Source: an uncultured Clostridia bacterium
GTDB taxonomy: Bacteria; Bacillota; Clostridia; TANB77; CAG-508
DNA length: 64,000 nt
Direction: 5' to 3'
NCBI GenBank assembly: GCA_946401865.1
Contig: CAMIVO010000001.1
Span: 10,026-74,025, forward strand
Made by a program: the position numbers and the translations under genes. Position 1 is the first letter of the stretch; each line of letters opens with the position of its first letter. Shown here piece by piece: positions 49,273 to 57,331 of the stretch. The notes below the pieces were generated by a model. That model was not told the origin of the DNA and did not search any database. It was given only the letters and a program-made list of their open reading frames with translations.

Positions 49273-49908
49273 ATGGATGTAAATAATAACTTAAGAAACT
49301 ATATAGAACAAAATATTTTTCCACTATATGAGAAAAATTATATTGGTGATGGAATAGATAGAATTAAATATGTTATAAAACGAAGTGAAAATATAATTAA
49401 AGAAAATGATTTAAAAGTGAATGATGATATCTTATATACAGCTATAAGTTATCATGATATTAGAAAAAATAATGATGAAAAAAATCATGAAAAGATTAGT
49501 GGAGAGATAATGTTTAAAGATGAGTTTTTGGCAAGCTATTTTACATTAGAGCAAAGAAAAATTATTCAAGAGGCAATAGAGGACCAAAGAGCAAATGCGG
49601 AAAACGAGCCTAGAAATATATATGGAAAAATATTATCTTCTGCCTCTAGAAACTCATCTGTTGAACAATGTTTAAAAAGATCCTATATTTATGGTAAAAA
49701 GAAAAATCCAGACTTATCTGATGTAGAAATTTTTGAGGGTGCATATAAGGTGCTTTCTAATAAGTTCGGAGAAAACGGATATGCTAAATTCTATTTTAAA
49801 GACACCACATATGAAAATTTTCTAAAAGATATAAGGCAATTGCTTTCTGATAAAAATAAATTTATTGAAGCTCAAAGAGCATGTATTGCCAATCTAAATC
49901 TAATATGA
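49273..49908 (+). CDS. HD-domain phosphohydrolase
   Basis: 211 aa with the YHDIRK H..HD pattern. Confidence 0.65.
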   Translation: MDVNNNLRNYIEQNIFPLYEKNYIGDGIDRIKYVIKRSENIIKENDLKVNDDILYTAISYHDIRKNNDEKNHEKISGEIMFKDEFLASYFTLEQRKIIQEAIEDQRANAENEPRNIYGKILSSASRNSSVEQCLKRSYIYGKKKNPDLSDVEIFEGAYKVLSNKFGENGYAKFYFKDTTYENFLKDIRQLLSDKNKFIEAQRACIANLNLI

Positions 49909-49921
49909 GGGGCAACATAAA

Positions 49922-50593
49922 GTGGATGCTATTAATGCACAATTAAAAGAATATATCGAAAAAAGCATATTTCCAAAATATAATAAATATTATTCACATG
50001 GTATGATACATATTAATAGTGTTATTAATAATATGTTGATGCTTGCAAATTATTATAACTTAGACCAAAATATGGCATATGTAATAGCCAGTTATCATGA
50101 TATAGGTTTAAATGTAAATAGGGAAAATCACGAATATGAATCTGGTAAAATTTTAGAAAGTGAAATAGAATTAAAAAAATACTTTACACCTGAACAAATT
50201 GAAGTAATGAAACAAGCAGTTGAAGATCATAGAGGATCTAGAAAAATAAGACCAAGAAATATTTATGTTGAATGTGTTTCTGACTCTGACAGGGATTTCG
50301 ATATAAAAATTCATATAAAAAGACAGATTTCAACATCAATTAAGAATTATCCACAAAAAAAATCTTTTGATGAACATTTTAAAAATTGCTATGAGTATGC
50401 CTGCGAAAGAATTAATGATAATGGTAAATTTAATCTATGGACAAATAATCCTATTTTAGTTGAAAGAAGAGATAATTTTCAAAAGGATTTCTTAAATAAA
50501 GAATATGCTAAATTGCTTTACAAAGAAGAATGGGATAGAATCTCAGCAGATGGTACAAAAGAAAAAATAATAAATTTTTATGAAGATTATTAA
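49922..50593 (+). CDS. HD-domain phosphohydrolase (tandem paralogue)
   Basis: 223 aa with a GTG start; shows HINSV...YHDIGL...EDHRG. Confidence 0.65.
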   Translation: MDAINAQLKEYIEKSIFPKYNKYYSHGMIHINSVINNMLMLANYYNLDQNMAYVIASYHDIGLNVNRENHEYESGKILESEIELKKYFTPEQIEVMKQAVEDHRGSRKIRPRNIYVECVSDSDRDFDIKIHIKRQISTSIKNYPQKKSFDEHFKNCYEYACERINDNGKFNLWTNNPILVERRDNFQKDFLNKEYAKLLYKEEWDRISADGTKEKIINFYEDY

Positions 50594-50611
50594 AAAGCAA
50601 TTTAAAAAATC

Positions 50612-50800
50612 TTGACAAATACTGAAATATTAAGTACAATAAATAAAGATATTATGAGATAATTAAATATAAAGATAAAAATATGGAAACCAAGGGAGTA
50701 TTTTCTTTGATTTCCATATTTTTATTGTTATAAAAAAACTTTATAATACAAAATCAAAGATTCTTTCTGGTTTCAAATATATTAAAAGGAGGATAATAAA
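50612..50800 (+). promoter_or_regulatory. Promoter plus conserved structured leader L1 with an intrinsic terminator (candidate attenuator/riboswitch or sRNA)
   Basis: TTGACA 50612-50617, 17 nt, TACAAT 50635-50640. Terminator ATATGGAAACCAAGG...CTTTGATTTCCATAT plus T-run at 50681-50726, then a second hairpin before the RBS. Near-duplicate at 55883-56073. Confidence 0.55.
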
Positions 50801-51679
50801 ATGATTGATTTACATATACATACAACTTGTTCAGATGGACAATTAACTGTAAAGCAATTACTAAAAAAAGCAAACAGTGAAGGAATATCTGTAATTTCTT
50901 TTTGTGATCACAATGTTTTAGGTGCATATCAAGTATTAGATAATATGGATTTAAGTAAATACAGAACAAAAATTATAACAGGTATAGAATTCGATTTTGT
51001 ATTTAAACATAAAGACTTTCACATGTTGGGATATGATTTTGATTGGAAAATGATGAATAAAAGTAATTTAATAAATACCAAAAGTGACGAAGAAATTATT
51101 CAAGAGGAAAATAAAAAATTAACCTTTTTAAAAGAAGTTTGTAGAAAACAAGGAATTAAATTTGATGAAGATTTAATTATAAGTAGAAAAAATGATAAAT
51201 CAAGCACTGTTATGAAATATCATATGATGGAATTTAAAGAAAATGATAAGATTTTAGATGAAATGCTAGGTAAAAATAGAGAAAAAAGTTTTGCAAGAGG
51301 CTATGTACATAATCCTAATAGTCCATTCTTTATAGATGAAACAATTGGATTACCCACAGCAATTGATGTAGCAAATTTAATACATTCATGTGGTGGTAAG
51401 GTAGTTTTGGCACATCCTTTTGACTATAAGGATATAAATCACAAACAATATATTCAGGATATCTATAATTTAGGCATTTTAGATGGTATAGAATGTTTAC
51501 ATACAAGACATGGAATTGAACAAATTGAGTATATTAAGTGTTTTTGTCAAAAAAACAATTTATTGATAACAGGTGGAAGCGATTTTCATAGAGAACTAAA
51601 ACAAACCTTAGGATATGGTGCTAGTGGTACTATTCCTATAACTGAAGAATATTGCTTAAAAAATGTAGATAATTTTTAA
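50801..51679 (+). CDS. PHP-domain phosphoesterase
   Basis: 292 aa with MIDLHIHTTCSDG and CDHN motifs. Confidence 0.8.
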   Translation: MIDLHIHTTCSDGQLTVKQLLKKANSEGISVISFCDHNVLGAYQVLDNMDLSKYRTKIITGIEFDFVFKHKDFHMLGYDFDWKMMNKSNLINTKSDEEIIQEENKKLTFLKEVCRKQGIKFDEDLIISRKNDKSSTVMKYHMMEFKENDKILDEMLGKNREKSFARGYVHNPNSPFFIDETIGLPTAIDVANLIHSCGGKVVLAHPFDYKDINHKQYIQDIYNLGILDGIECLHTRHGIEQIEYIKCFCQKNNLLITGGSDFHRELKQTLGYGASGTIPITEEYCLKNVDNF

Positions 51680-51793
51680 ACAAAAAAAACTAAGATAAAT
51701 CAAATTATAAAATAAAATTGAAAACAAATTGCTTTAAATGTTGTTTTTTATGTATATATGTGATAAAATACATAAAAAAGGAGGCAGAAAAAA

Positions 51794-52120
51794 ATGAGTG
51801 ATGGTAAAAATAAACTAATAATAAAAAATTTAATTAGTTTTATTCTTTCATTTTTCCCTAGATTTAGTATGATATTATTTGCATTATGTCTAAAATCAGA
51901 AAATATTGATTTCAAAGATGCAATGGATAATGCTTTTGGGACAATAGTTTTTGGACCTTTTGCATTAATTATATTATGTATGAGTTTATTAATTGCTTTA
52001 CCAGCTTTTATAATGACGATAAAATATATGATAGAAATTATAAAAAGCAAGAAAAAAATAGTAATTCCGATAATAGAAATTTTGATTTATATATTAGAAA
52101 TTATTAGATTTATAAAATAA
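51794..52120 (+). CDS. Small membrane protein
   Basis: 108 aa with three predicted hydrophobic helices. Confidence 0.45.
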   Translation: MSDGKNKLIIKNLISFILSFFPRFSMILFALCLKSENIDFKDAMDNAFGTIVFGPFALIILCMSLLIALPAFIMTIKYMIEIIKSKKKIVIPIIEILIYILEIIRFIK

Positions 52121-52170
52121 TTATATATGAATTTAATCTTTATTCAAAAATAAAAAAAGGAGTTTTTTTA

Positions 52171-52898
52171 ATGATTAAAAAATAGCAAAACCTATAAATT
52201 TAGTATACACTGGTCAAAATATTAATCTTCCAAAAAGTTTAAAGGATAAAATTGAAGATTTTTGGAGTAAAGCAATTTTAGAAACTCCAACGTTATATAA
52301 TGGAGAAGATTTTGCAGTTGAAGAAGTCACAGAGGCAGAAAATGAAATTATTATAAAAGTTTCTAAAACAAATTATGCTCACTATTTATATGACGAAAGA
52401 ATTGGAATAGATGATGAAAAATATAGATGTATTTGTCCATGGAGTGGAATTTTACTTTTAACAAACGATAATTATTGGGTGTTTGGACAAGCAAGTGAAA
52501 AAACTTCTTTTCCAAATGGTTTCCAATTATCTGGTGGTGGAATTGATAAAAAGGACATAACAGGCTCAAATATTGATTTAATTCAAAATTTAAAGCGCGA
52601 ATTAAAAGAGGAAGTGAATCTTAATTTAAATGAAATAAATTATAAATTTCAGTACATCGAATATCCAAATACTAAAAGAAATGCTTATGGATTTATTGCA
52701 GTTGGTAAATTAAATATGTCAAAAAACGAATTGCAAAATCATTTTAAACAATATAAAGAATTTTTAGAAAAGAATAATTTAGAAGTAGAATTCAATAATT
52801 TAATATTTCTTAAAAAGGGTGAGGCTATTAAGGAATTAGATTCATATACTAATCCTAAAAGGGTCTATTTAAGAGATTTGATTTCTGAAGTTGAATGA
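52171..52898 (+). pseudogene. NUDIX-like hydrolase with a frame break in an A6 run just after the start codon
   Basis: GGAG RBS and ATG 52171, then atg att aaa aaa TAG. One extra A would give MIKKIAKPINLVYTGQN..., joining the long frame that contains the track ORF 52479-52898 (GGGID...LKRELKEEVNL). Confidence 0.6.
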
Positions 52899-53469
52899 GA
52901 TAAAATCAAAAGAAGTGAAAAGACAATATTTGAAAAAAATAGCAGAGGAGCTAAAACATAATAAGATGGAATTATGGGAAGTATTAGATAAAAATGGAAA
53001 TAAGACAGGTGAAATAATGGAAAAAAATGATGAAACATTTTTTGAAAAAGGCTTTTGTCATTTAGGAGCAGAGATATGGATTATAAATAGTAAAAATAAA
53101 TTTTTAATTCAAAAAAGAGCTAGCAACAAAAAAATTTTTCCCAACATGTGGGCTATGATGGGAGGTTCTGTTATTGCAGGTGAAAACCCAAAGCAAACAA
53201 TTGTAAGAGAGGCTAAAGAAGAGTTGGATATTAATATTGATATTAATAAATTAGAATTTATAACCAAATTTAGAGTAGACTCACTTATAGTAGAAACATA
53301 TTTATTAAGAAATGATTTTAAGATAAAGAACATGAAGTTAAAAAAAGATGAAGTATCTGAAGTAAAATGGATGACACTAAAAGAAATTGAAAATTTAGTT
53401 GATAAAGAACAATTTTTTAAAAATAGATGGAAATATGTAAAAAAATATTTAGATAATTTATATATCTAA
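52891..53469 (+). CDS. NUDIX hydrolase
   Basis: 192 aa with Nudix box GGSVIAGENPKQTIVREAKEELDI. Confidence 0.8.
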   Translation: MNEIKSKEVKRQYLKKIAEELKHNKMELWEVLDKNGNKTGEIMEKNDETFFEKGFCHLGAEIWIINSKNKFLIQKRASNKKIFPNMWAMMGGSVIAGENPKQTIVREAKEELDINIDINKLEFITKFRVDSLIVETYLLRNDFKIKNMKLKKDEVSEVKWMTLKEIENLVDKEQFFKNRWKYVKKYLDNLYI

Positions 53470-53545
53470 AAATTCAACTTTGAACCAAAAACAGCGAGAG
53501 AGTACAGGAAACAAGGATGTAAGATTGTGCAAAATGAAATATACG

Positions 53546-53565
53546 ACATTGTACAAAATAAAAGT
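53546..53565 (+). repeat. Motif M copy 1 (ACATTGTACAAAATAAAAGT), with a half-copy at 53524-53539
   Basis: One of six copies of ACWTTGYAYAAAATNAAAGT, all on the plus strand upstream of cassette genes. Confidence 0.7.
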
Positions 53566-53629
53566 TTCCGTGCATTGCGATGCTGAAAAATCAATAGTTA
53601 CATAATATTGATATCAGACTGATAGATAG

Positions 53630-53658
53630 TTGTAATTATCAGTCTTTTGTTATATAAT
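53630..53658 (+). promoter_or_regulatory. SigmaA-type promoter (shared module with 60210-60238)
   Basis: TTGTAA-17-TATAAT. The block TAGTTGTAATTATCAGTYTTTTGTTATATAATAA is repeated upstream of the deaminase gene. Confidence 0.55.
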
Positions 53659-53727
53659 AAGTAAAAATTAAGAACATAAGTAATATTGCGCACAGGCAGA
53701 AGATTTAAATACTAAAAGGAGATTTTT

Positions 53728-54339
53728 ATGATAATTATAGAGGAAAATAACATAAATAAAGTATGGAAAAACGCATTAGAAAAGCTATATAAAAATGGGT
53801 ATATACCACAAGATTCAAGATTTTTTAAAATGGATACATTAATAATCGAAATGAATGAGCCTGAACTTTGCGAACCAGATTCCCAATTTCCAATGGATAA
53901 AGCTAATATAGATATTATTAATAACTTTATTATTACTGGAGAAAATGAGAAAAAAGTATGCCATGAATGGACCAAACTATATTTTCATAGATTATTTGAT
54001 AATCCCAATTCTCAAATTGAATATATGATAGAAAGAATAAAAAAAGATAGAGTAGGTATTGCATGTAATTGGATAAAAGATGACCAAAAAGCTGAAATCA
54101 AACCTTGCATGCTAAGTATTACTGCAAGTAACGAAAATGGAAAAGTTAATTTCCAATTACATTCAAGAGCATGTAATATATATGACAAGTTACTCATGAA
54201 TCTTCAAGAATTTATTACGGTACAAAAATATATTGCATCAAGATGCAGCTTGAAGATAGGAAGATTCACCATGTTTATAGATTATGCACAGATTTCAGTA
54301 AAAGACAAAAAGAAAGTAGAAGATATAATTTCTAAGTAA
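53728..54339 (+). CDS. Divergent thymidylate-synthase-fold protein (ThyA / dCMP-hydroxymethylase-like)
   Basis: 203 aa. RVGIACNW...KPCMLSITASNENGKVNFQLHSRACN...MNL aligns with ThyA RRIIVSAWN...[25 protein letters not shown]...FNI. Confidence 0.6.
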   Translation: MIIIEENNINKVWKNALEKLYKNGYIPQDSRFFKMDTLIIEMNEPELCEPDSQFPMDKANIDIINNFIITGENEKKVCHEWTKLYFHRLFDNPNSQIEYMIERIKKDRVGIACNWIKDDQKAEIKPCMLSITASNENGKVNFQLHSRACNIYDKLLMNLQEFITVQKYIASRCSLKIGRFTMFIDYAQISVKDKKKVEDIISK

Positions 54340-54394
54340 TTCATTTTATTTTTTTAGATTTAATTATAATTTATCAAAAAAATGGAGAAAAAAT

Positions 54395-54943
54395 ATGGAC
54401 AATTATATAATAATTCATGGTTCATATGGTAATCCATATAAAAATTGGATTCCATATTTAAAAAAGAAATTAAGTATTAGAAAACTAAATTGTATTATAC
54501 CAAGTTTTCCAACGCCACACAATCAAAACTATAATTCTTGGGAAACAGTACTTTTAGCTTACTTTAAGGTTGGATATATAACTGAGAATACTACCATTAT
54601 AACACATAGCTTAGGCAGTATCTTTGTTGTAAAATTTTTAATAGAAAACAAAATTAAAGTGAAAAGAATTATAACTGTTGCAGGTTTTAATAAAATAAAA
54701 TATGATGAAGATAATTCATTATATGATTCTTTTTATATGGAAGATAACGAATTGAATAAAATTGTTGATTTATGTGAAGATATTTATTGTTTTTATTCTG
54801 ATAATGATCCATACGTCAATATTGACAAAGCAATGCAGTTTGCTAAATTAATAAATGGAAAAGGAATTTTAATAAAAAACGCAGGGCATTTTAACGAAAA
54901 GTCTGGATATATTGAATTTAAAGAATTATTAAAATATATTTAA
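54395..54943 (+). CDS. YdeN/RBBP9-type serine hydrolase (alpha/beta fold)
   Basis: 182 aa with IIIHGSYGNP, the nucleophile motif THSLGS and C-terminal D...GHF. Confidence 0.65.
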   Translation: MDNYIIIHGSYGNPYKNWIPYLKKKLSIRKLNCIIPSFPTPHNQNYNSWETVLLAYFKVGYITENTTIITHSLGSIFVVKFLIENKIKVKRIITVAGFNKIKYDEDNSLYDSFYMEDNELNKIVDLCEDIYCFYSDNDPYVNIDKAMQFAKLINGKGILIKNAGHFNEKSGYIEFKELLKYI

Positions 54944-55075
54944 ATTAAGAATATAAAATAATAGTTCTAAATAGCTTAAAAGATAAAAACATTACAAGAA
55001 GAGAGGGCTCAAATAAAAATGGAGTGTGGAAGATTATAGAAAAACACTAATTTATAACTGCTTTTATATAGGAGT

Positions 55076-55714
55076 ATGAATAACATGGATGATATAATAA
55101 AAAATACAATCAAATTTTATGTTTTATGCAATAAATTAAAGGATTTAATTAGAAAAGGTCCATTAACATGGAATGTAAAAAGAGAAAGAATAGAAAGTGT
55201 AGCAGAACACATTTATGGTGTTCAAATGTTAGCAATTTCAATTTATTTTCAATTCAATTATAAGTTAGATTTAAATAAAGTTATATTTATGCTTGCAATT
55301 CACGAATTAGAAGAAATTAAAATAGGTGATTTAGCTTTTTATGAAACAACTCGTGTAGATAAATTAATAAATGGTAGGAAAGCTACAGAATATATTTTAG
55401 AAAATTTCAGTGGAAAAGAAGAAATATTAAATTTATTAGACGAATATAATGAAAGAAAAACTGAAGAAGCAATTTTTGCATATCATTGTGATAAATTAGA
55501 ATGTGATATTCAAATGAAACTATATGATCAAGAAGGATGCCTTGATTTAAATAATCAAACAAAAAATCCAATAATAAATCTTCCTAGTGTTAGAAAAGTT
55601 CTAGATAGTGAGAAAAATATTTCTAATGCTTGGATTGAATTTGATAGAGATAAATATGAAAATGACCCTATTTTTATTGATATCATCAATTGGCTTAAAG
55701 ATAATAAGATTTAA
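55076..55714 (+). CDS. YfbR-like HD-domain 5'-deoxynucleotidase
   Basis: 212 aa with ESVAEHIYGV...AIHELEEIKIGDL. Confidence 0.7.
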   Translation: MNNMDDIIKNTIKFYVLCNKLKDLIRKGPLTWNVKRERIESVAEHIYGVQMLAISIYFQFNYKLDLNKVIFMLAIHELEEIKIGDLAFYETTRVDKLINGRKATEYILENFSGKEEILNLLDEYNERKTEEAIFAYHCDKLECDIQMKLYDQEGCLDLNNQTKNPIINLPSVRKVLDSEKNISNAWIEFDRDKYENDPIFIDIINWLKDNKI

Positions 55715-55750
55715 AAAAGTATGATTTGATTTAGATTATATATAAAATAG

Positions 55751-55814
55751 GGAATAGAAGTTGATTTGCAATTTTTTGAAAAATATAATTTTTAAAATTG
55801 CAAATTATTTTATT
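55751..55814 (+). terminator. Terminator module H copy 1
   Basis: GGAATAGAAG box, then ATTTGCAATTTT...AAAATTGCAAAT stem followed by a T-rich tail. Confidence 0.6.
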
Positions 55815-55882
55815 AATATAGAAAAATGATTTTCAAAAGATATATTAAATAAAATATTGACATCGGAAAAAACGCAAATCTA

Positions 55883-56073
55883 TTGAAAAATCGTAAAATA
55901 TATGTATAATAAATAAAGTTGTAATGAGATAATTAAATATAATAATGTAGATATGGAAACCAAGGGAGTGTTCTCTTTGATTTCCATATTTTTATTGTAA
56001 AAAATCACACTTTATAATAAGAAATTAAAGCTACTTTCTGGTTTTAAATATATTAAAAGGAGGATTAAGGAAT
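55883..56073 (+). promoter_or_regulatory. Promoter plus conserved structured leader L2 (duplicate of L1)
   Basis: TTGAAA-16-TATAAT (55905-55910). Terminator at 55951-55996 is identical in its stem to L1, and the second hairpin shows a C-to-T change that keeps pairing (C-G becomes U-G). Confidence 0.55.
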
Positions 56074-56505
56074 ATGAGTGAAAGACATGTTTCAAGAATA
56101 GTAGTTGATTTACTGCTAGAAAGGAGAATCTCTACAACAGGTAAAACAGAAATTCTAATGATGTTAGCAGAGTATTTAGACAATCAATATGATTTACCAG
56201 GTGGACATTTAGAACCAGGAGAAGATTTATATGAGGCAATGATAAGAGAAGCAAAAGAAGAGTTGGGAATTGAGATAGAAAGAGAAGATATGCAAATGGT
56301 TCATATTTATCATCATTTTGAAAAAGACATGTTAAAATTTGTTTTTAGAGTTAAAAAATTTAAAAACGAAATACAAAACTTAGAACCCGAAAAGTGTAAA
56401 GAATTAAAATGGGTAGACATTGAGAATTTACCAAATAACACAATAAGTGGAATAAGAAAAGAACTAGAGTATATTAAATCAAAAAAGTATTATAGCTGTG
56501 ATTAA
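56074..56505 (+). CDS. NUDIX hydrolase
   Basis: 143 aa with Nudix box GGHLEPGEDLYEAMIREAKEELGIE. Confidence 0.85.
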   Translation: MSERHVSRIVVDLLLERRISTTGKTEILMMLAEYLDNQYDLPGGHLEPGEDLYEAMIREAKEELGIEIEREDMQMVHIYHHFEKDMLKFVFRVKKFKNEIQNLEPEKCKELKWVDIENLPNNTISGIRKELEYIKSKKYYSCD

Positions 56506-56712
56506 ATTATAAGTAAACAAAGAAAGGAGCCGTTTTAAAATGAATGATTTAGCAGTAGTTTTAAGTAATGTGAATTGCCATGATTATTGTAAAAAAAGAT
56601 ATAAAAAAGAAAATGAGCTATCAGAATAACTTTCAAAAGAATTATATTTGAATTACAATATGGATGAAAGTTAGTAGAAGCATACTTTGATAGGCCTATT
56701 TTGCAATATGTG

Positions 56713-56732
56713 ACTTTGCACAAAATAAAAGT
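56713..56732 (+). repeat. Motif M copy (ACTTTGCACAAAATAAAAGT)
   Basis: Upstream of the NUDIX gene at 56840; preceded by the inverted half ATTTTGCAA. Confidence 0.6.
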
Positions 56733-56839
56733 GTCTGGACATTTAAACAATCATGAAAACTACTTTATAATAAAATTTGCTAAAAGTCTTGTTAATTTTG
56801 TTCGTATATGTTAAAGTATTTACAAACGGAGGTAACCAA

Positions 56840-57331
56840 ATGAATGATAATAAAAAAATTACAACTTATGATGTTTTTAATAACGAATATACCGTTGATT
56901 TAGAAAACCTTGATTTATCAGTCCACATATATGGAATTGCAATAAACGATAATAAAATTTTAATTTCTCCTCAATATGATGGTTATGATTTTCCAGGTGG
57001 AACCATAAAAAAGGGAGAAACACACATTGAAACTTTAATTCGTGAATTTCAAGAGGAAACAGGCTATTTAGTAGAGCCTACAGAAATAGTAAAAGTTTAT
57101 ACATCTTTTTTTCACCATAATAAAAGAAATAAAGATTATCAAAGCTACTTAATATTTTACTTTGTCAATATTGTTGATGGAAAAATTTCTGATGAGGGAT
57201 TTGATGAAGATGAAAAAGAATATGCCCAAAAAGCAAAATGGGTGGACATAGAATATCTTAGAAACAATAAACATTCGTGTAGCATTAATATAAAAGATGA
57301 ATTAATTGATTCAATTTTAAATAGATTATAA
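56840..57331 (+). CDS. NUDIX hydrolase
   Basis: Nudix box GGTIKKGETHIETLIREFQEETGY. Start placed at the ATG after GGAGG (track ORF begins at TTG 56777). Confidence 0.8.
   Translation: MNDNKKITTYDVFNNEYTVDLENLDLSVHIYGIAINDNKILISPQYDGYDFPGGTIKKGETHIETLIREFQEETGYLVEPTEIVKVYTSFFHHNKRNKDYQSYLIFYFVNIVDGKISDEGFDEDEKEYAQKAKWVDIEYLRNNKHSCSINIKDELIDSILNRL

What the first reader, a model, noticed from the sequence alone, without database searches (positions are those of the whole stretch)
50612..50800. Duplicated promoter-leader module with intrinsic terminator upstream of a PHP gene and a NUDIX gene (candidate attenuator, riboswitch or sRNA)
Regions 50635-50800 and 55905-56073 align along their whole length. 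The order is: the -10 element; AAATAAAG; ATGAGATAATTAAATATAA; a strong terminator hairpin ATATGGAAACCAAGGGAGT.TTCTCTTTGATTTCCATAT plus a T-run; CTTTATAATA; a second hairpin AAATYAAAG...CTTTCTGGTTT; then AAATATATTAAAAGGAGGAT and the start codon.
In hairpin 2 the one stem difference (C in L1, T in L2, opposite G) preserves pairing, a small hint of RNA-level selection.
A terminator between promoter and RBS, conserved in front of two different phosphohydrolase genes, implies conditional read-through. That would be a ligand, protein or tRNA-independent attenuator; alternatively it is a short ~85-nt sRNA followed by a second promoter. I see no resemblance to riboswitch classes I can recognise by eye; for example it lacks ykkC-type conserved GC-rich cores.
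Basis: partly seen in the sequence, partly recalled or inferred. Interest (0 to 1): 0.6.

Follow-up and report, generated by a model that had tools for sequence, protein, structure and literature searches.

The report
Shared leader-terminator before NUDIX, PHP, HelD genes
The two look-alike stretches are copies of an uncatalogued promoter-plus-stop-signal leader that one genus of uncultured gut bacteria places only in front of a Nudix hydrolase, a PHP phosphoesterase and the RNA-polymerase-rescue protein HelD, so it most likely switches these genes on together; what it senses is still unknown.

Summary
The two modules are 86-87% identical and are the only copies in this 1.74-Mb genome.

They belong to a family of at least 19 sequence lineages (about 32 distinct sequences). 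I found it only in one genus of uncultured gut and rumen Clostridia. It has no Rfam match.

Each member has, in order:
- a near-consensus sigma-A promoter;
- 13-15 nt later, a nearly invariant box X (ATGAGATAAT[TAAATAT]), which reads as an extended -10 element;
- an RNA hairpin with a covarying base, two conserved G.U pairs and a U tract;
- a box B' (UUGGUU(U)C) just 5' of the Shine-Dalgarno sequence (SD), which can replace the hairpin's 3' arm.

The gene downstream is always a MutT-like NUDIX, a PHP esterase or HelD. These three also share operons.

Short versions leave no room for a second promoter. The genes must therefore be read through the hairpin, which points to a transcription attenuator defining a small regulon.

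The input signal is unknown. Neither an antiterminator nor a small-molecule aptamer is supported. X behaves like a promoter-linked protein- or sigma-recognition site.

The leader is neither the B. subtilis helD convergent-promoter rifampicin alarm nor the actinobacterial rifamycin-associated element (RAE).

An earlier scan note (e1-4731954) describes a similar unit before a NUDIX gene in another genome.

The parts
50612..50640 (+). Promoter P1 of copy 1: TTGACA, 17 nt, TACAAT
   Evidence: 11 of 12. The homologous promoter scores 10-12 of 12 in all other lineages.
50654..50670 (+). Box X of copy 1: ATGAGATAATTAAATAT. It contains the extended -10-like TGAGATAAT and the mini-frame AUG AGA UAA. 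It starts 13 nt after the -10 hexamer.
   Evidence: Invariant in 24 of 25 aligned members. The core ATGAGATAAT is kept in the divergent member L128.
50681..50719 (+). Terminator hairpin of copy 1. The 5' arm is ATATGGAAACCAAGGGAG and the 3' arm is TTTTCTTTGATTTCCATAT.
   Evidence: Folding (-16.6 kcal/mol). Covariation.
50720..50728 (+). U tract of copy 1 (TTTTATTGT)
50768..50782 (+). Box B' of copy 1: TGGTTTCAAATATAT. It is complementary to ATATGGAAACCA of the 5' arm.
   Evidence: duplex -10.0 kcal/mol; 0 of 300 shuffles as good.
50788..50803 (+). SD (GGAGG) and ATG of the PHP gene
50801..51679 (+). PHP-family phosphoesterase, 292 aa. Nearest models are RNase RNM/AM and 3',5'-nucleoside bisphosphate phosphatase, both below their cut-offs.
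55883..55910 (+). Promoter P1 of copy 2: TTGAAA, 16 nt, TATAAT
   Evidence: 11 of 12
55924..55940 (+). Box X of copy 2: ATGAGATAATTAAATAT, starting 13 nt after the -10 hexamer
55951..55989 (+). Terminator hairpin of copy 2
   Evidence: (-15.9 kcal/mol)
55990..55998 (+). U tract of copy 2
56039..56053 (+). Box B' of copy 2: TGGTTTTAAATATAT
   Evidence: -8.2 kcal/mol; shuffle fraction 0.03.
56059..56076 (+). SD (GGAGG) and ATG of the NUDIX gene
56074..56505 (+). MutT-like NUDIX hydrolase, 143 aa; the core gene of the regulon
   Evidence: It lies downstream of the leader in 19 of 25 loci.

Best explanation
Both copies belong to an uncatalogued cis-acting 5' leader that works as a transcription attenuator. 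It ties three gene families into one small regulon: a MutT-like NUDIX hydrolase (the core gene), a PHP phosphoesterase like RNase AM or pAp phosphatase, and the RNA-polymerase recycling ATPase HelD.

Proposed mechanism
1. A near-consensus sigma-A promoter fires.
2. About 6 nt into the transcript lies box X. It is nearly invariant, and its conserved core is exactly an extended -10-like element (TGnGATAAT).
3. About 35-40 nt into the transcript, a 16-18-bp RNA hairpin followed by a U tract stops most transcripts. This leaves a short RNA of roughly 75-80 nt.
4. The genes are made only from polymerases that read through.
5. In read-through RNA, box B' lies just 5' of the Shine-Dalgarno sequence. 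It can displace the weaker, G.U-rich 3' arm and re-pair with the 5' arm. The ribosome-binding site stays open.

The input is not a small-molecule aptamer and not a classical antiterminator helix. X is the probable input site. It could be a promoter-proximal sigma-dependent pause or loading site, or the binding site of an unidentified protein, that changes how efficiently polymerase passes the terminator. HelD is one of the regulated genes, so the signal plausibly reports trouble with transcription.

Shown by tool results: the anatomy, conservation, covariation, gene association and operon links; the absence of a second promoter; the absence of a supported antiterminator.

Inferred: termination and its conditional relief, the role of X, and the nature of the signal.
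For: Family and distribution
- A covariance model of X plus the hairpin finds full-length homologues at 57-101 bits in other species of the genus.
- Pattern scans add 9 genome loci and about 25 metagenome loci.
- All carry TTGACA-17-TATAAT-type promoters (10-12 of 12), with X 13-15 nt after the -10 hexamer.

Hairpin
- Across 25 distinct sequences, 90% of cells are paired and 6 of 16 pairs change on both sides.
- No shuffle reaches the observed covariation score, and the slid registers collapse.
- G.U is invariant at two positions (25 of 25 and 24 of 25). These pairs exist only in plus-strand RNA.
- Stem energy is -12 to -20 kcal/mol, followed by 4-6 U.

Gene association
- The downstream gene is NUDIX in 19 loci, PHP in 7 and HelD in 4-5.
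- Operons occur as NUDIX-PHP, PHP-NUDIX and HelD-NUDIX.
- No other neighbouring gene is conserved.
- The helicase scores 471 bits against the HelD_BACSU equivalog, whose cut-off is 419.

No second promoter
- In short forms there is no promoter-like site between hairpin and ATG.

Box B'
- Its complementarity to the 5' arm beats shuffles in 16 of 19 lineages (-8 to -15 kcal/mol).
- It lies 14-28 nt before the ATG.
- Its flank tracks the stem base: AUAU with AUAU, GUU with AAU or UAA.

Box X
- The core ATGAGATAAT is kept in a divergent HelD leader that has lost the upper stem (L128).
- X is also kept in front of an unrelated multibranch terminator (L129).
- The promoter scan itself flags TG-n-GATAAT as promoter-like in L087 and L091.
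Against: - Termination, read-through and the transcription start are all inferred.
- No alternative structure that would prevent termination is supported. X with the 3' arm, and the 3' arm with the SD, pair no better than shuffled controls.
- No trans-acting factor is identified, and no regulator gene is conserved nearby.
- Box B' lies downstream of the termination point, so it cannot affect the termination decision. Its role is unexplained.
- The family is narrow. Many members are close relatives, which inflates the apparent invariance of X.
- The pattern scans required an exact 13 nt of X, so they could not reveal variants.
- In L129, X lies 64 nt from the -10 hexamer, which argues against a strictly promoter-proximal role. 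That HelD gene carries a stop codon, however, and may be decaying.
Confidence: 0.55

Rival explanations
1. X is a DNA operator for a repressor or activator that sits over positions +6 to +22 of the promoter and carries all the regulation. The hairpin is only a leaky or constitutive terminator, or an RNA-stabilising stem.
For: - X keeps a fixed distance (13-15 nt) from the -10 hexamer, while its distance to the hairpin varies from 10 to 19 nt.
- X does not pair significantly with anything in the leader.
- X persists when the hairpin is replaced.
- Precedent: the actinobacterial RAE before helD lies about 20 bp downstream of the P1 start (PMC10719064).
Against: - X has no dyad or direct-repeat symmetry (read directly from the sequence).
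- No regulator gene is linked to it.
- This reading leaves several conserved features unexplained: the hairpin sequence, its G.U pairs and box B'.
- In L129, X lies 64 nt from the promoter.
Confidence: 0.2
2. It is a riboswitch. X together with the conserved upper hairpin binds a nucleotide-derived ligand that shifts the balance between termination and read-through.
For: - The downstream genes all act on nucleotides or RNA polymerase.
- The upper stem is conserved in sequence (AACCAAGGG ... CTCTT) with invariant wobble pairs.
- The expression platform is a terminator.
Against: - There is no Rfam match, even at E up to 10.
- Only about 35 nt precede the hairpin.
- The X-to-hairpin spacing and spacer sequence vary.
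- L128 loses the upper stem and L129 swaps the whole hairpin, while both keep X.
- No competing helix is supported.
Confidence: 0.1
3. The promoter-to-terminator unit is a stand-alone trans-acting small RNA of about 75-80 nt, with X as its single-stranded seed. The genes behind it are expressed incidentally by read-through.
For: - It has the canonical sRNA build: a strong promoter, a conserved unpaired 5' segment, and a terminator hairpin with a U tail.
Against: - It is never found away from NUDIX, PHP or HelD, apart from two truncated loci (L077, L083).
- It is always in the same orientation and directly abuts their SD.
- Box B' is conserved downstream of the terminator, outside the would-be sRNA.
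- No extra complementary sites to X stand out in the genome.
Confidence: 0.07
4. It is a ribosome-mediated attenuator. The mini-frame AUG AGA UAA inside X is translated, and a stalled ribosome changes leader folding, as in antibiotic-sensing uORF leaders such as vmlR.
For: - AUG AGA followed by a stop is kept in every variant, including the one with a deletion (AUG AGA AAU UAA in L106).
- Three-codon uORFs are functional in vmlR (PMC9226507).
Against: - The predicted start leaves only about 6 nt before the AUG, so there is no room for an SD.
- No anti-antiterminator or antiterminator pairing is detectable.
- A ribosome on X would not reach the hairpin, which lies 10-19 nt further on.
- The regulated genes have nothing to do with translation.
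Confidence: 0.05
5. It is a B. subtilis-type rifampicin alarm made of convergent sense and antisense promoters, or merely the duplicated terminator of the preceding genes.
For: - helD in B. subtilis is controlled by a convergent promoter pair in its 5' UTR (PMC12802891).
- The hairpin has an A-rich 5' flank and scores weakly on the minus strand.
Against: - No antisense promoter recurs at any fixed position in 15 lineages.
- The conserved G.U pairs become A.C mismatches on the minus strand.
- Upstream genes differ from locus to locus, while the unit stays with the downstream gene.
Confidence: 0.03

Closest known systems
Intrinsic-terminator leaders (transcription attenuators) of Firmicutes, for example the vmlR leader of B. 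subtilis (PMC9226507)
   Same: - Promoter, then a short leader, an intrinsic terminator before the SD, and expression by read-through.
- In vmlR, re-pairing after read-through also affects the ribosome-binding region.
- A very short frame lies near the 5' end.
   Different: - The mini-frame has no SD.
- No anti-antiterminator or antiterminator helices are detectable.
- The regulated genes act on nucleotides and RNA polymerase, not on the ribosome.
- There is no sequence homology.
Lambdoid late-promoter unit (PR', a -10-like sigma-dependent pause element in the initial transcribed region, terminator tR', short 6S RNA), read through only with the antiterminator Q. This comparison rests on my own knowledge.
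   Same: - A strong promoter.
- A -10-like element (here TGnGATAAT at about +9 to +17) early in the transcribed region.
- A terminator shortly after it.
- By prediction, an abundant short terminated RNA.
   Different: - The setting is chromosomal housekeeping-type genes, not phage late genes.
- No Q-like gene or Q-binding element is identified.
- Pausing is untested.
- X is conserved over 16-17 nt, more than a -10-like element needs.
Rifamycin-associated element (RAE) of Actinobacteria, before helR/helD, arr, rgt, rox and rph (PMC10719064)
   Same: - A conserved box a few to about 20 bp downstream of the P1 transcription start.
- It overlaps a second sense promoter-like element.
- It is shared by helD and a set of small enzymes.
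   Different: - The RAE is a 19-bp palindrome that overlaps a -35 element. X is not palindromic and resembles an extended -10 element.
- The phylum and HelD class differ.
- The RAE unit has no terminator.
[quoted passage not shown]
   Same: - It controls a Class I-type helD.
- It relies on an unusually strong promoter in the helD upstream region.
- It is reported there to occur also before hydrolase genes.
   Different: - It requires an antisense promoter 45-100 bp away. None is conserved here.
- The leader here has a sense-strand terminator instead.

Membership tests
Terminator-based transcription attenuator | Promoter upstream of the leader, and no other promoter between terminator and gene | tested here: met
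   P1 scores 10-12 of 12 in every lineage. In short forms no promoter-like site lies between hairpin and ATG. This is a consensus scan only; no 5'-end data were available.
Terminator-based transcription attenuator | Stable RNA hairpin followed directly by a U tract, upstream of the SD | tested here: met
   -12 to -20 kcal/mol with 4-6 U.
Terminator-based transcription attenuator | A mutually exclusive antiterminator structure, or a bound factor, that relieves termination | tested here: inconclusive
   Pairing of X with the 3' arm, and of the 3' arm with the SD, is no better than shuffles. The only supported alternative helix (5' arm with B') forms after the termination point. A protein or RNA-polymerase-based input is not testable here.
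Terminator-based transcription attenuator | Condition-dependent ratio of terminated to read-through transcripts | not testable with these tools
Riboswitch | Match to a described class | tested here: not met
   No Rfam 15 hit at gathering score. At E up to 10 there were only chance hairpin matches.
Riboswitch | Aptamer with fixed architecture and conserved junction or loop nucleotides held by covarying stems | tested here: not met
   There is a single hairpin. The X-to-hairpin spacer varies from 10 to 19 nt. The upper stem is lost in L128 and the whole hairpin is replaced in L129, while X stays.
B. subtilis helD/pps convergent dual-promoter system | Antisense promoter in the 5' UTR, 45-100 bp from the sense promoter | tested here: not met
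   The scan of 15 lineages found no recurrent minus-strand promoter. Criteria were taken from PMC12802891.
Rifamycin-associated element (RAE) | 19-bp palindrome | tested here: not met
   X (ATGAGATAATTAAATAT) is not self-complementary beyond TAATTA; this is read directly from the sequence.
Rifamycin-associated element (RAE) | Induction of the downstream genes by rifamycins | not testable with these tools
   Needs experiments.
Sigma-dependent promoter-proximal pause with antitermination (Q-type) | -10-like element on the non-template strand within about +1 to +25 | tested here: met
   TGAGATAAT lies at about +9 to +17 in all typical members. The promoter scan flags it, with the extended TG, in L087 and L091. 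In L128 conservation ends exactly after GATAAT.
Sigma-dependent promoter-proximal pause with antitermination (Q-type) | Dedicated antiterminator protein and a demonstrated pause | not tested
   No candidate gene is linked. Pausing needs in vitro transcription.
NusG-paralogue (RfaH/LoaP) antitermination | A second NusG-family gene in the genome | tested here: not met
   G000, at 96.5% completeness, has one PF02357 match.
uORF-dependent (ribosome-mediated) attenuator | Translated upstream frame with its own ribosome-binding site | tested here: not met
   The frame AUG AGA UAA is present, but it starts about 6 nt from the predicted 5' end and no conserved SD precedes it.
Trans-acting sRNA gene | Occurs independently of a fixed downstream gene | tested here: not met
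   All intact copies abut NUDIX, PHP or HelD.

The most novel reading that the evidence does not exclude
The leader is a third, independently evolved alarm for RNA-polymerase inhibition, alongside the actinobacterial RAE and the Bacillus convergent promoters.

In this reading, a consensus promoter feeds polymerases into a sigma-A-dependent pause at box X, and the state of those complexes sets read-through of the terminator. That state could be polymerase traffic, backtracking, or a factor loaded at X.

The response would couple HelD, which releases stalled polymerase, with a NUDIX hydrolase and a PHP nuclease or phosphatase. Those two enzymes would clear aberrant nucleotides or abortive 5'-triphosphorylated oligonucleotides.
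Probability: 0.15. Interest if true: 0.8.

Novelty: new member of a known kind. Interest (0 to 1): 0.55.

Why it matters
- The leader gives a testable regulon for three poorly understood proteins. HelD is known to rescue stalled RNA polymerase and, in Bacillus and Actinobacteria, to protect against rifampicin. Here it shares a leader and operons with a MutT-like Nudix hydrolase and an RNase-AM-like PHP enzyme. This points to a joint function in transcription quality control or in defence against polymerase inhibitors in gut anaerobes.
- It would be a further way of regulating helD, distinct from the two described so far.
- It offers a compact model of about 120 nt for terminator control without an obvious antiterminator.
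- Its reach is limited to one genus of uncultured bacteria, and the signal is unknown.

Tried and rejected
1. Rfam at gathering score and at E up to 10 gave only chance hairpin hits.
2. BLAST of the module against 60 relatives gave AT-rich noise, apart from one true hit.
3. Wider searches found nothing outside the genus:
   - covariance model over the order;
   - hairpin pattern over 400 genomes in 50 genera of the family;
   - viral contigs;
   - plasmids and phages.
4. Antisense or second sense promoter: none is conserved.
5. Antiterminator by X with the 3' arm, and SD sequestration by the 3' arm: neither beats shuffles.
6. Leader peptide starting after the SD-like AAGGGAG: a UUG frame exists only in the GGAAACC lineage (seen by reading).
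7. NusG paralogue: absent.
8. Conserved neighbouring regulator: none.
9. Invertible segment between the inverted boxes: rejected by reasoning. The boxes are only about 28-100 bp apart, and the G.U pattern argues for RNA.
10. Fur/PerR-type or LexA-type operator in X or in GAAC...GTTC: the half-sites and spacing do not fit (comparison from memory).
12. NUDIX paralogues at 40-50% identity in 14 genomes have no leader.

Full report
**What is in the window**

The two stretches (50590-50815 and 55860-56090) align at 87% column identity, from the -35 hexamer to the start codon. In the whole 1.74-Mb, 90-contig assembly there are just these two copies.

Each copy starts with the best promoter-like site of the 49-58 kb region:
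- TTGACA-17-TACAAT at 50612-50640;
- TTGAAA-16-TATAAT at 55883-55910.

Thirteen nucleotides after the -10 hexamer comes ATGAGATAATTAAATAT, which I call box X (50654-50670 and 55924-55940).

A hairpin of about -16 kcal/mol follows, then a U tract (50681-50728 and 55951-55998).

Further downstream come:
- a lineage-specific segment;
- the box TGGTTT(C/T)AAATATAT, which I call B';
- a strong Shine-Dalgarno sequence (SD);
- the start of a PHP phosphoesterase (50801-51679) or a NUDIX hydrolase (56074-56505).

**It is a family, not a local duplication**

A covariance model of X plus the hairpin found full-length matches of 57-101 bits in other species of the same genus.

Exact-pattern scans found 9 true loci in the species-representative genomes and about 25 in metagenome contigs. 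The chance hits were easy to recognise.

After removing near-duplicates there are about 32 distinct sequences in at least 19 lineages. Looking upstream of homologous genes added three divergent members.

The record titles name uncultured Clostridia from human, goat and deer gut.

I did not find the unit in any of these searches:
- 378 genomes from 49 other genera of the family;
- a sample of the order;
- viral contigs;
- plasmids or phages.

Rfam 15 has no match.

**Which genes it precedes**

Every intact copy lies directly upstream of one of three gene families.

| Gene family | Loci | Identification |
|---|---|---|
| MutT-like NUDIX hydrolase, 143-148 aa | 19 of 25 | |
| PHP esterase | 7 | Nearest RNase RNM/AM and 3',5'-nucleoside bisphosphate phosphatase, below cut-offs |
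| HelD | 4-5 | 471 bits against HelD_BACSU, cut-off 419 |

The three families also share operons behind the leader: NUDIX-PHP, PHP-NUDIX and HelD-NUDIX. One genome has a NUDIX-HelD pair without the leader.

Upstream genes differ from locus to locus, and no regulator gene is conserved nearby. HelD is rare in the genus (14 of 300 genomes) and is absent from the window's genome. NUDIX paralogues of 40-50% identity lack the leader.

The unit therefore belongs to the downstream genes and defines a small accessory regulon.

**What is conserved, and at which level**

*Promoter.* It scores 10-12 of 12 against the consensus in every lineage.

*Hairpin.* It is an RNA element on the plus strand.
- In 25 distinct sequences, 90% of cells pair.
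- Six of 16 pairs show changes on both sides: AUAUGG/CCAUAU, GUUGG/UCAAC, GCUGG/UCAGC, and one G-C to A-U.
- None of 500 shuffles reaches the observed covariation score, and the slid registers collapse.
- Two wobble pairs are kept in 25 of 25 and 24 of 25 sequences. On the minus strand they would be A.C mismatches.
- The upper 5' arm AACCAAGGG is invariant.

*Box X.* It is invariant in 24 of 25 aligned members.
- It starts 13-15 nt after the -10 hexamer.
- Its distance to the hairpin varies from 10 to 19 nt, and the spacer is not conserved.
- In a divergent HelD leader (L128), conservation stops exactly after ATGAGATAAT. There the upper stem is lost and CCAAGGG sits in the loop.
- In another variant (L129), X precedes an unrelated multibranch terminator and lies 64 nt from the -10 hexamer. 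That HelD gene has an internal stop.
- The conserved core TGAGATAAT is an extended -10 element with one mismatch. The promoter scan itself flags it in two lineages.
- It also spells the frame AUG AGA UAA.

*Box B'.* It lies 14-28 nt before the ATG and is complementary to the 5' arm.
- The duplex is -8 to -15 kcal/mol.
- It beats shuffled controls (fraction at or below 0.05) in 16 of 19 lineages.
- Its flank follows the stem base of each lineage.

They look like a degenerate second copy of the hairpin.

**How it most likely works**

In short forms only 35-40 nt separate the hairpin from the ATG, and no promoter-like site lies there. The genes therefore depend on the upstream promoter, and polymerase must pass the hairpin and U tract.

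This is the logic of a transcription attenuator. Most transcripts should end as an RNA of about 75-80 nt, and the genes should be expressed from read-through.

In read-through RNA, B' offers the 5' arm a better, fully Watson-Crick partner than the G.U-rich 3' arm. A re-pairing that loops out the 3' arm and the U tract is plausible, and folding keeps the SD mostly unpaired. B' lies beyond the termination point, so it cannot decide termination. Its role is unexplained; it could concern mRNA stability, ribosome access or processing.

I found no supported antiterminator. X with the 3' arm, and the 3' arm with the SD, pair no better than composition-matched shuffles.

Three properties of X fit a recognition site for a protein or for sigma-A in a promoter-proximal paused complex:
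- its spacing is fixed to the promoter and variable to the hairpin;
- it pairs with no partner in the leader;
- it survives when the hairpin is exchanged.

These properties do not fit part of a ligand-binding fold.

The genome has a single NusG gene, so a LoaP/RfaH-type factor is unlikely.

The signal is unknown. HelD removes stalled RNA polymerase, and helD is induced by sub-inhibitory rifampicin in other phyla (PMC12802891, PMC10719064). A signal related to transcription stress is therefore a reasonable but untested guess.

**Comparison with known systems**

*B. subtilis helD and pps.* These are controlled by a sense promoter and a stronger antisense promoter 45-100 bp apart. No conserved antisense promoter exists here, so this is not that system.

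*Actinobacterial RAE.* It is a 19-bp palindrome about 20 bp downstream of the P1 start, and it overlaps the -35 of a second promoter. X shares the position class but is not palindromic, and the RAE unit has no terminator. This is not a member.

*vmlR-type leaders.* They use a three-codon uORF with its own SD, plus anti-antiterminator and antiterminator helices. The mini-frame here has no room for an SD, and no such helices are detectable.

*Lambdoid PR'/tR' unit.* From my own knowledge, it has a strong promoter, an early -10-like pause element, a nearby terminator and a short terminated RNA. This is the closest anatomical analogue. No Q-like factor is known here.

**Limits**

- The transcription start, termination and regulation are all inferred.
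- The family is narrow and many members are closely related.
- The collection scans demanded an exact 13 nt of X. The invariance of X therefore rests mainly on the covariance-model hits and the three variants found through the proteins.

**Verdict**

This is a real, conserved and uncatalogued leader of the attenuator kind, linking NUDIX, PHP and HelD genes. The riboswitch reading and the sRNA-plus-second-promoter reading are not.

Noticed in passing
window 49273-57331: A same-strand run of small genes for nucleotide-handling enzymes: two HD proteins, a PHP, at least three NUDIX proteins, a ThyA-fold fragment, a YdeN-type serine hydrolase and a YfbR-like HD_3 protein. Only two of these genes carry the leader.
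   Followed up: partly
L036 1637-2509 (also L035, L073, L095): In the G015 lineage the PHP gene behind the leader is split by an apparent one-base insertion about 40 codons in (GTTGTTCGGAGCA where the window has GTTTTAGGTGCA). The same break appears in several independent assemblies, so it is probably real. It could be a pseudogene or a frameshift site.
   Followed up: partly
L068 5868-6390, L076 3842-4495, L106: In three lineages the PHP gene is deleted down to its first 25 codons or so. These are fused to, or lie just before, the NUDIX gene. Other decayed copies are L077 (deletion into PHP), L066 (HelD in two pieces), G090 (HelD with a stop) and G321 (HelD pseudogene). The regulon genes decay often.
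   Followed up: partly
L083 about 110-150 and L104 about 110-150: A shared sequence (GTTTTCG..ATTAGAATGTTGAT.TATCAAT) marks a rearrangement junction. In L083 it cuts the leader after the hairpin. In L104 it lies about 90 nt upstream of the promoter. It may be the end of a mobile element or a recombination site. It is not present in the window above chance.
   Followed up: partly
L085 and L097, between the U tract and B': An insertion of about 80 nt in two HelD leaders contains a partial extra copy of the hairpin's 3' arm (CCTAAGTTTCTTTGATT).
   Followed up: no
G000 contig 38, 1-709 (L110); also L109, L112, L114: A NUDIX paralogue (49% identical) follows a HicB-like antitoxin gene and one or two GGGGACGGTCC hairpins. 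It has no leader.
   Followed up: no
L129 (G090:C54): In this variant leader a 49-nt insert with a GC-rich hairpin separates the promoter from X. The terminator is a long stem enclosing two small AAAGGG-containing hairpins.
   Followed up: partly
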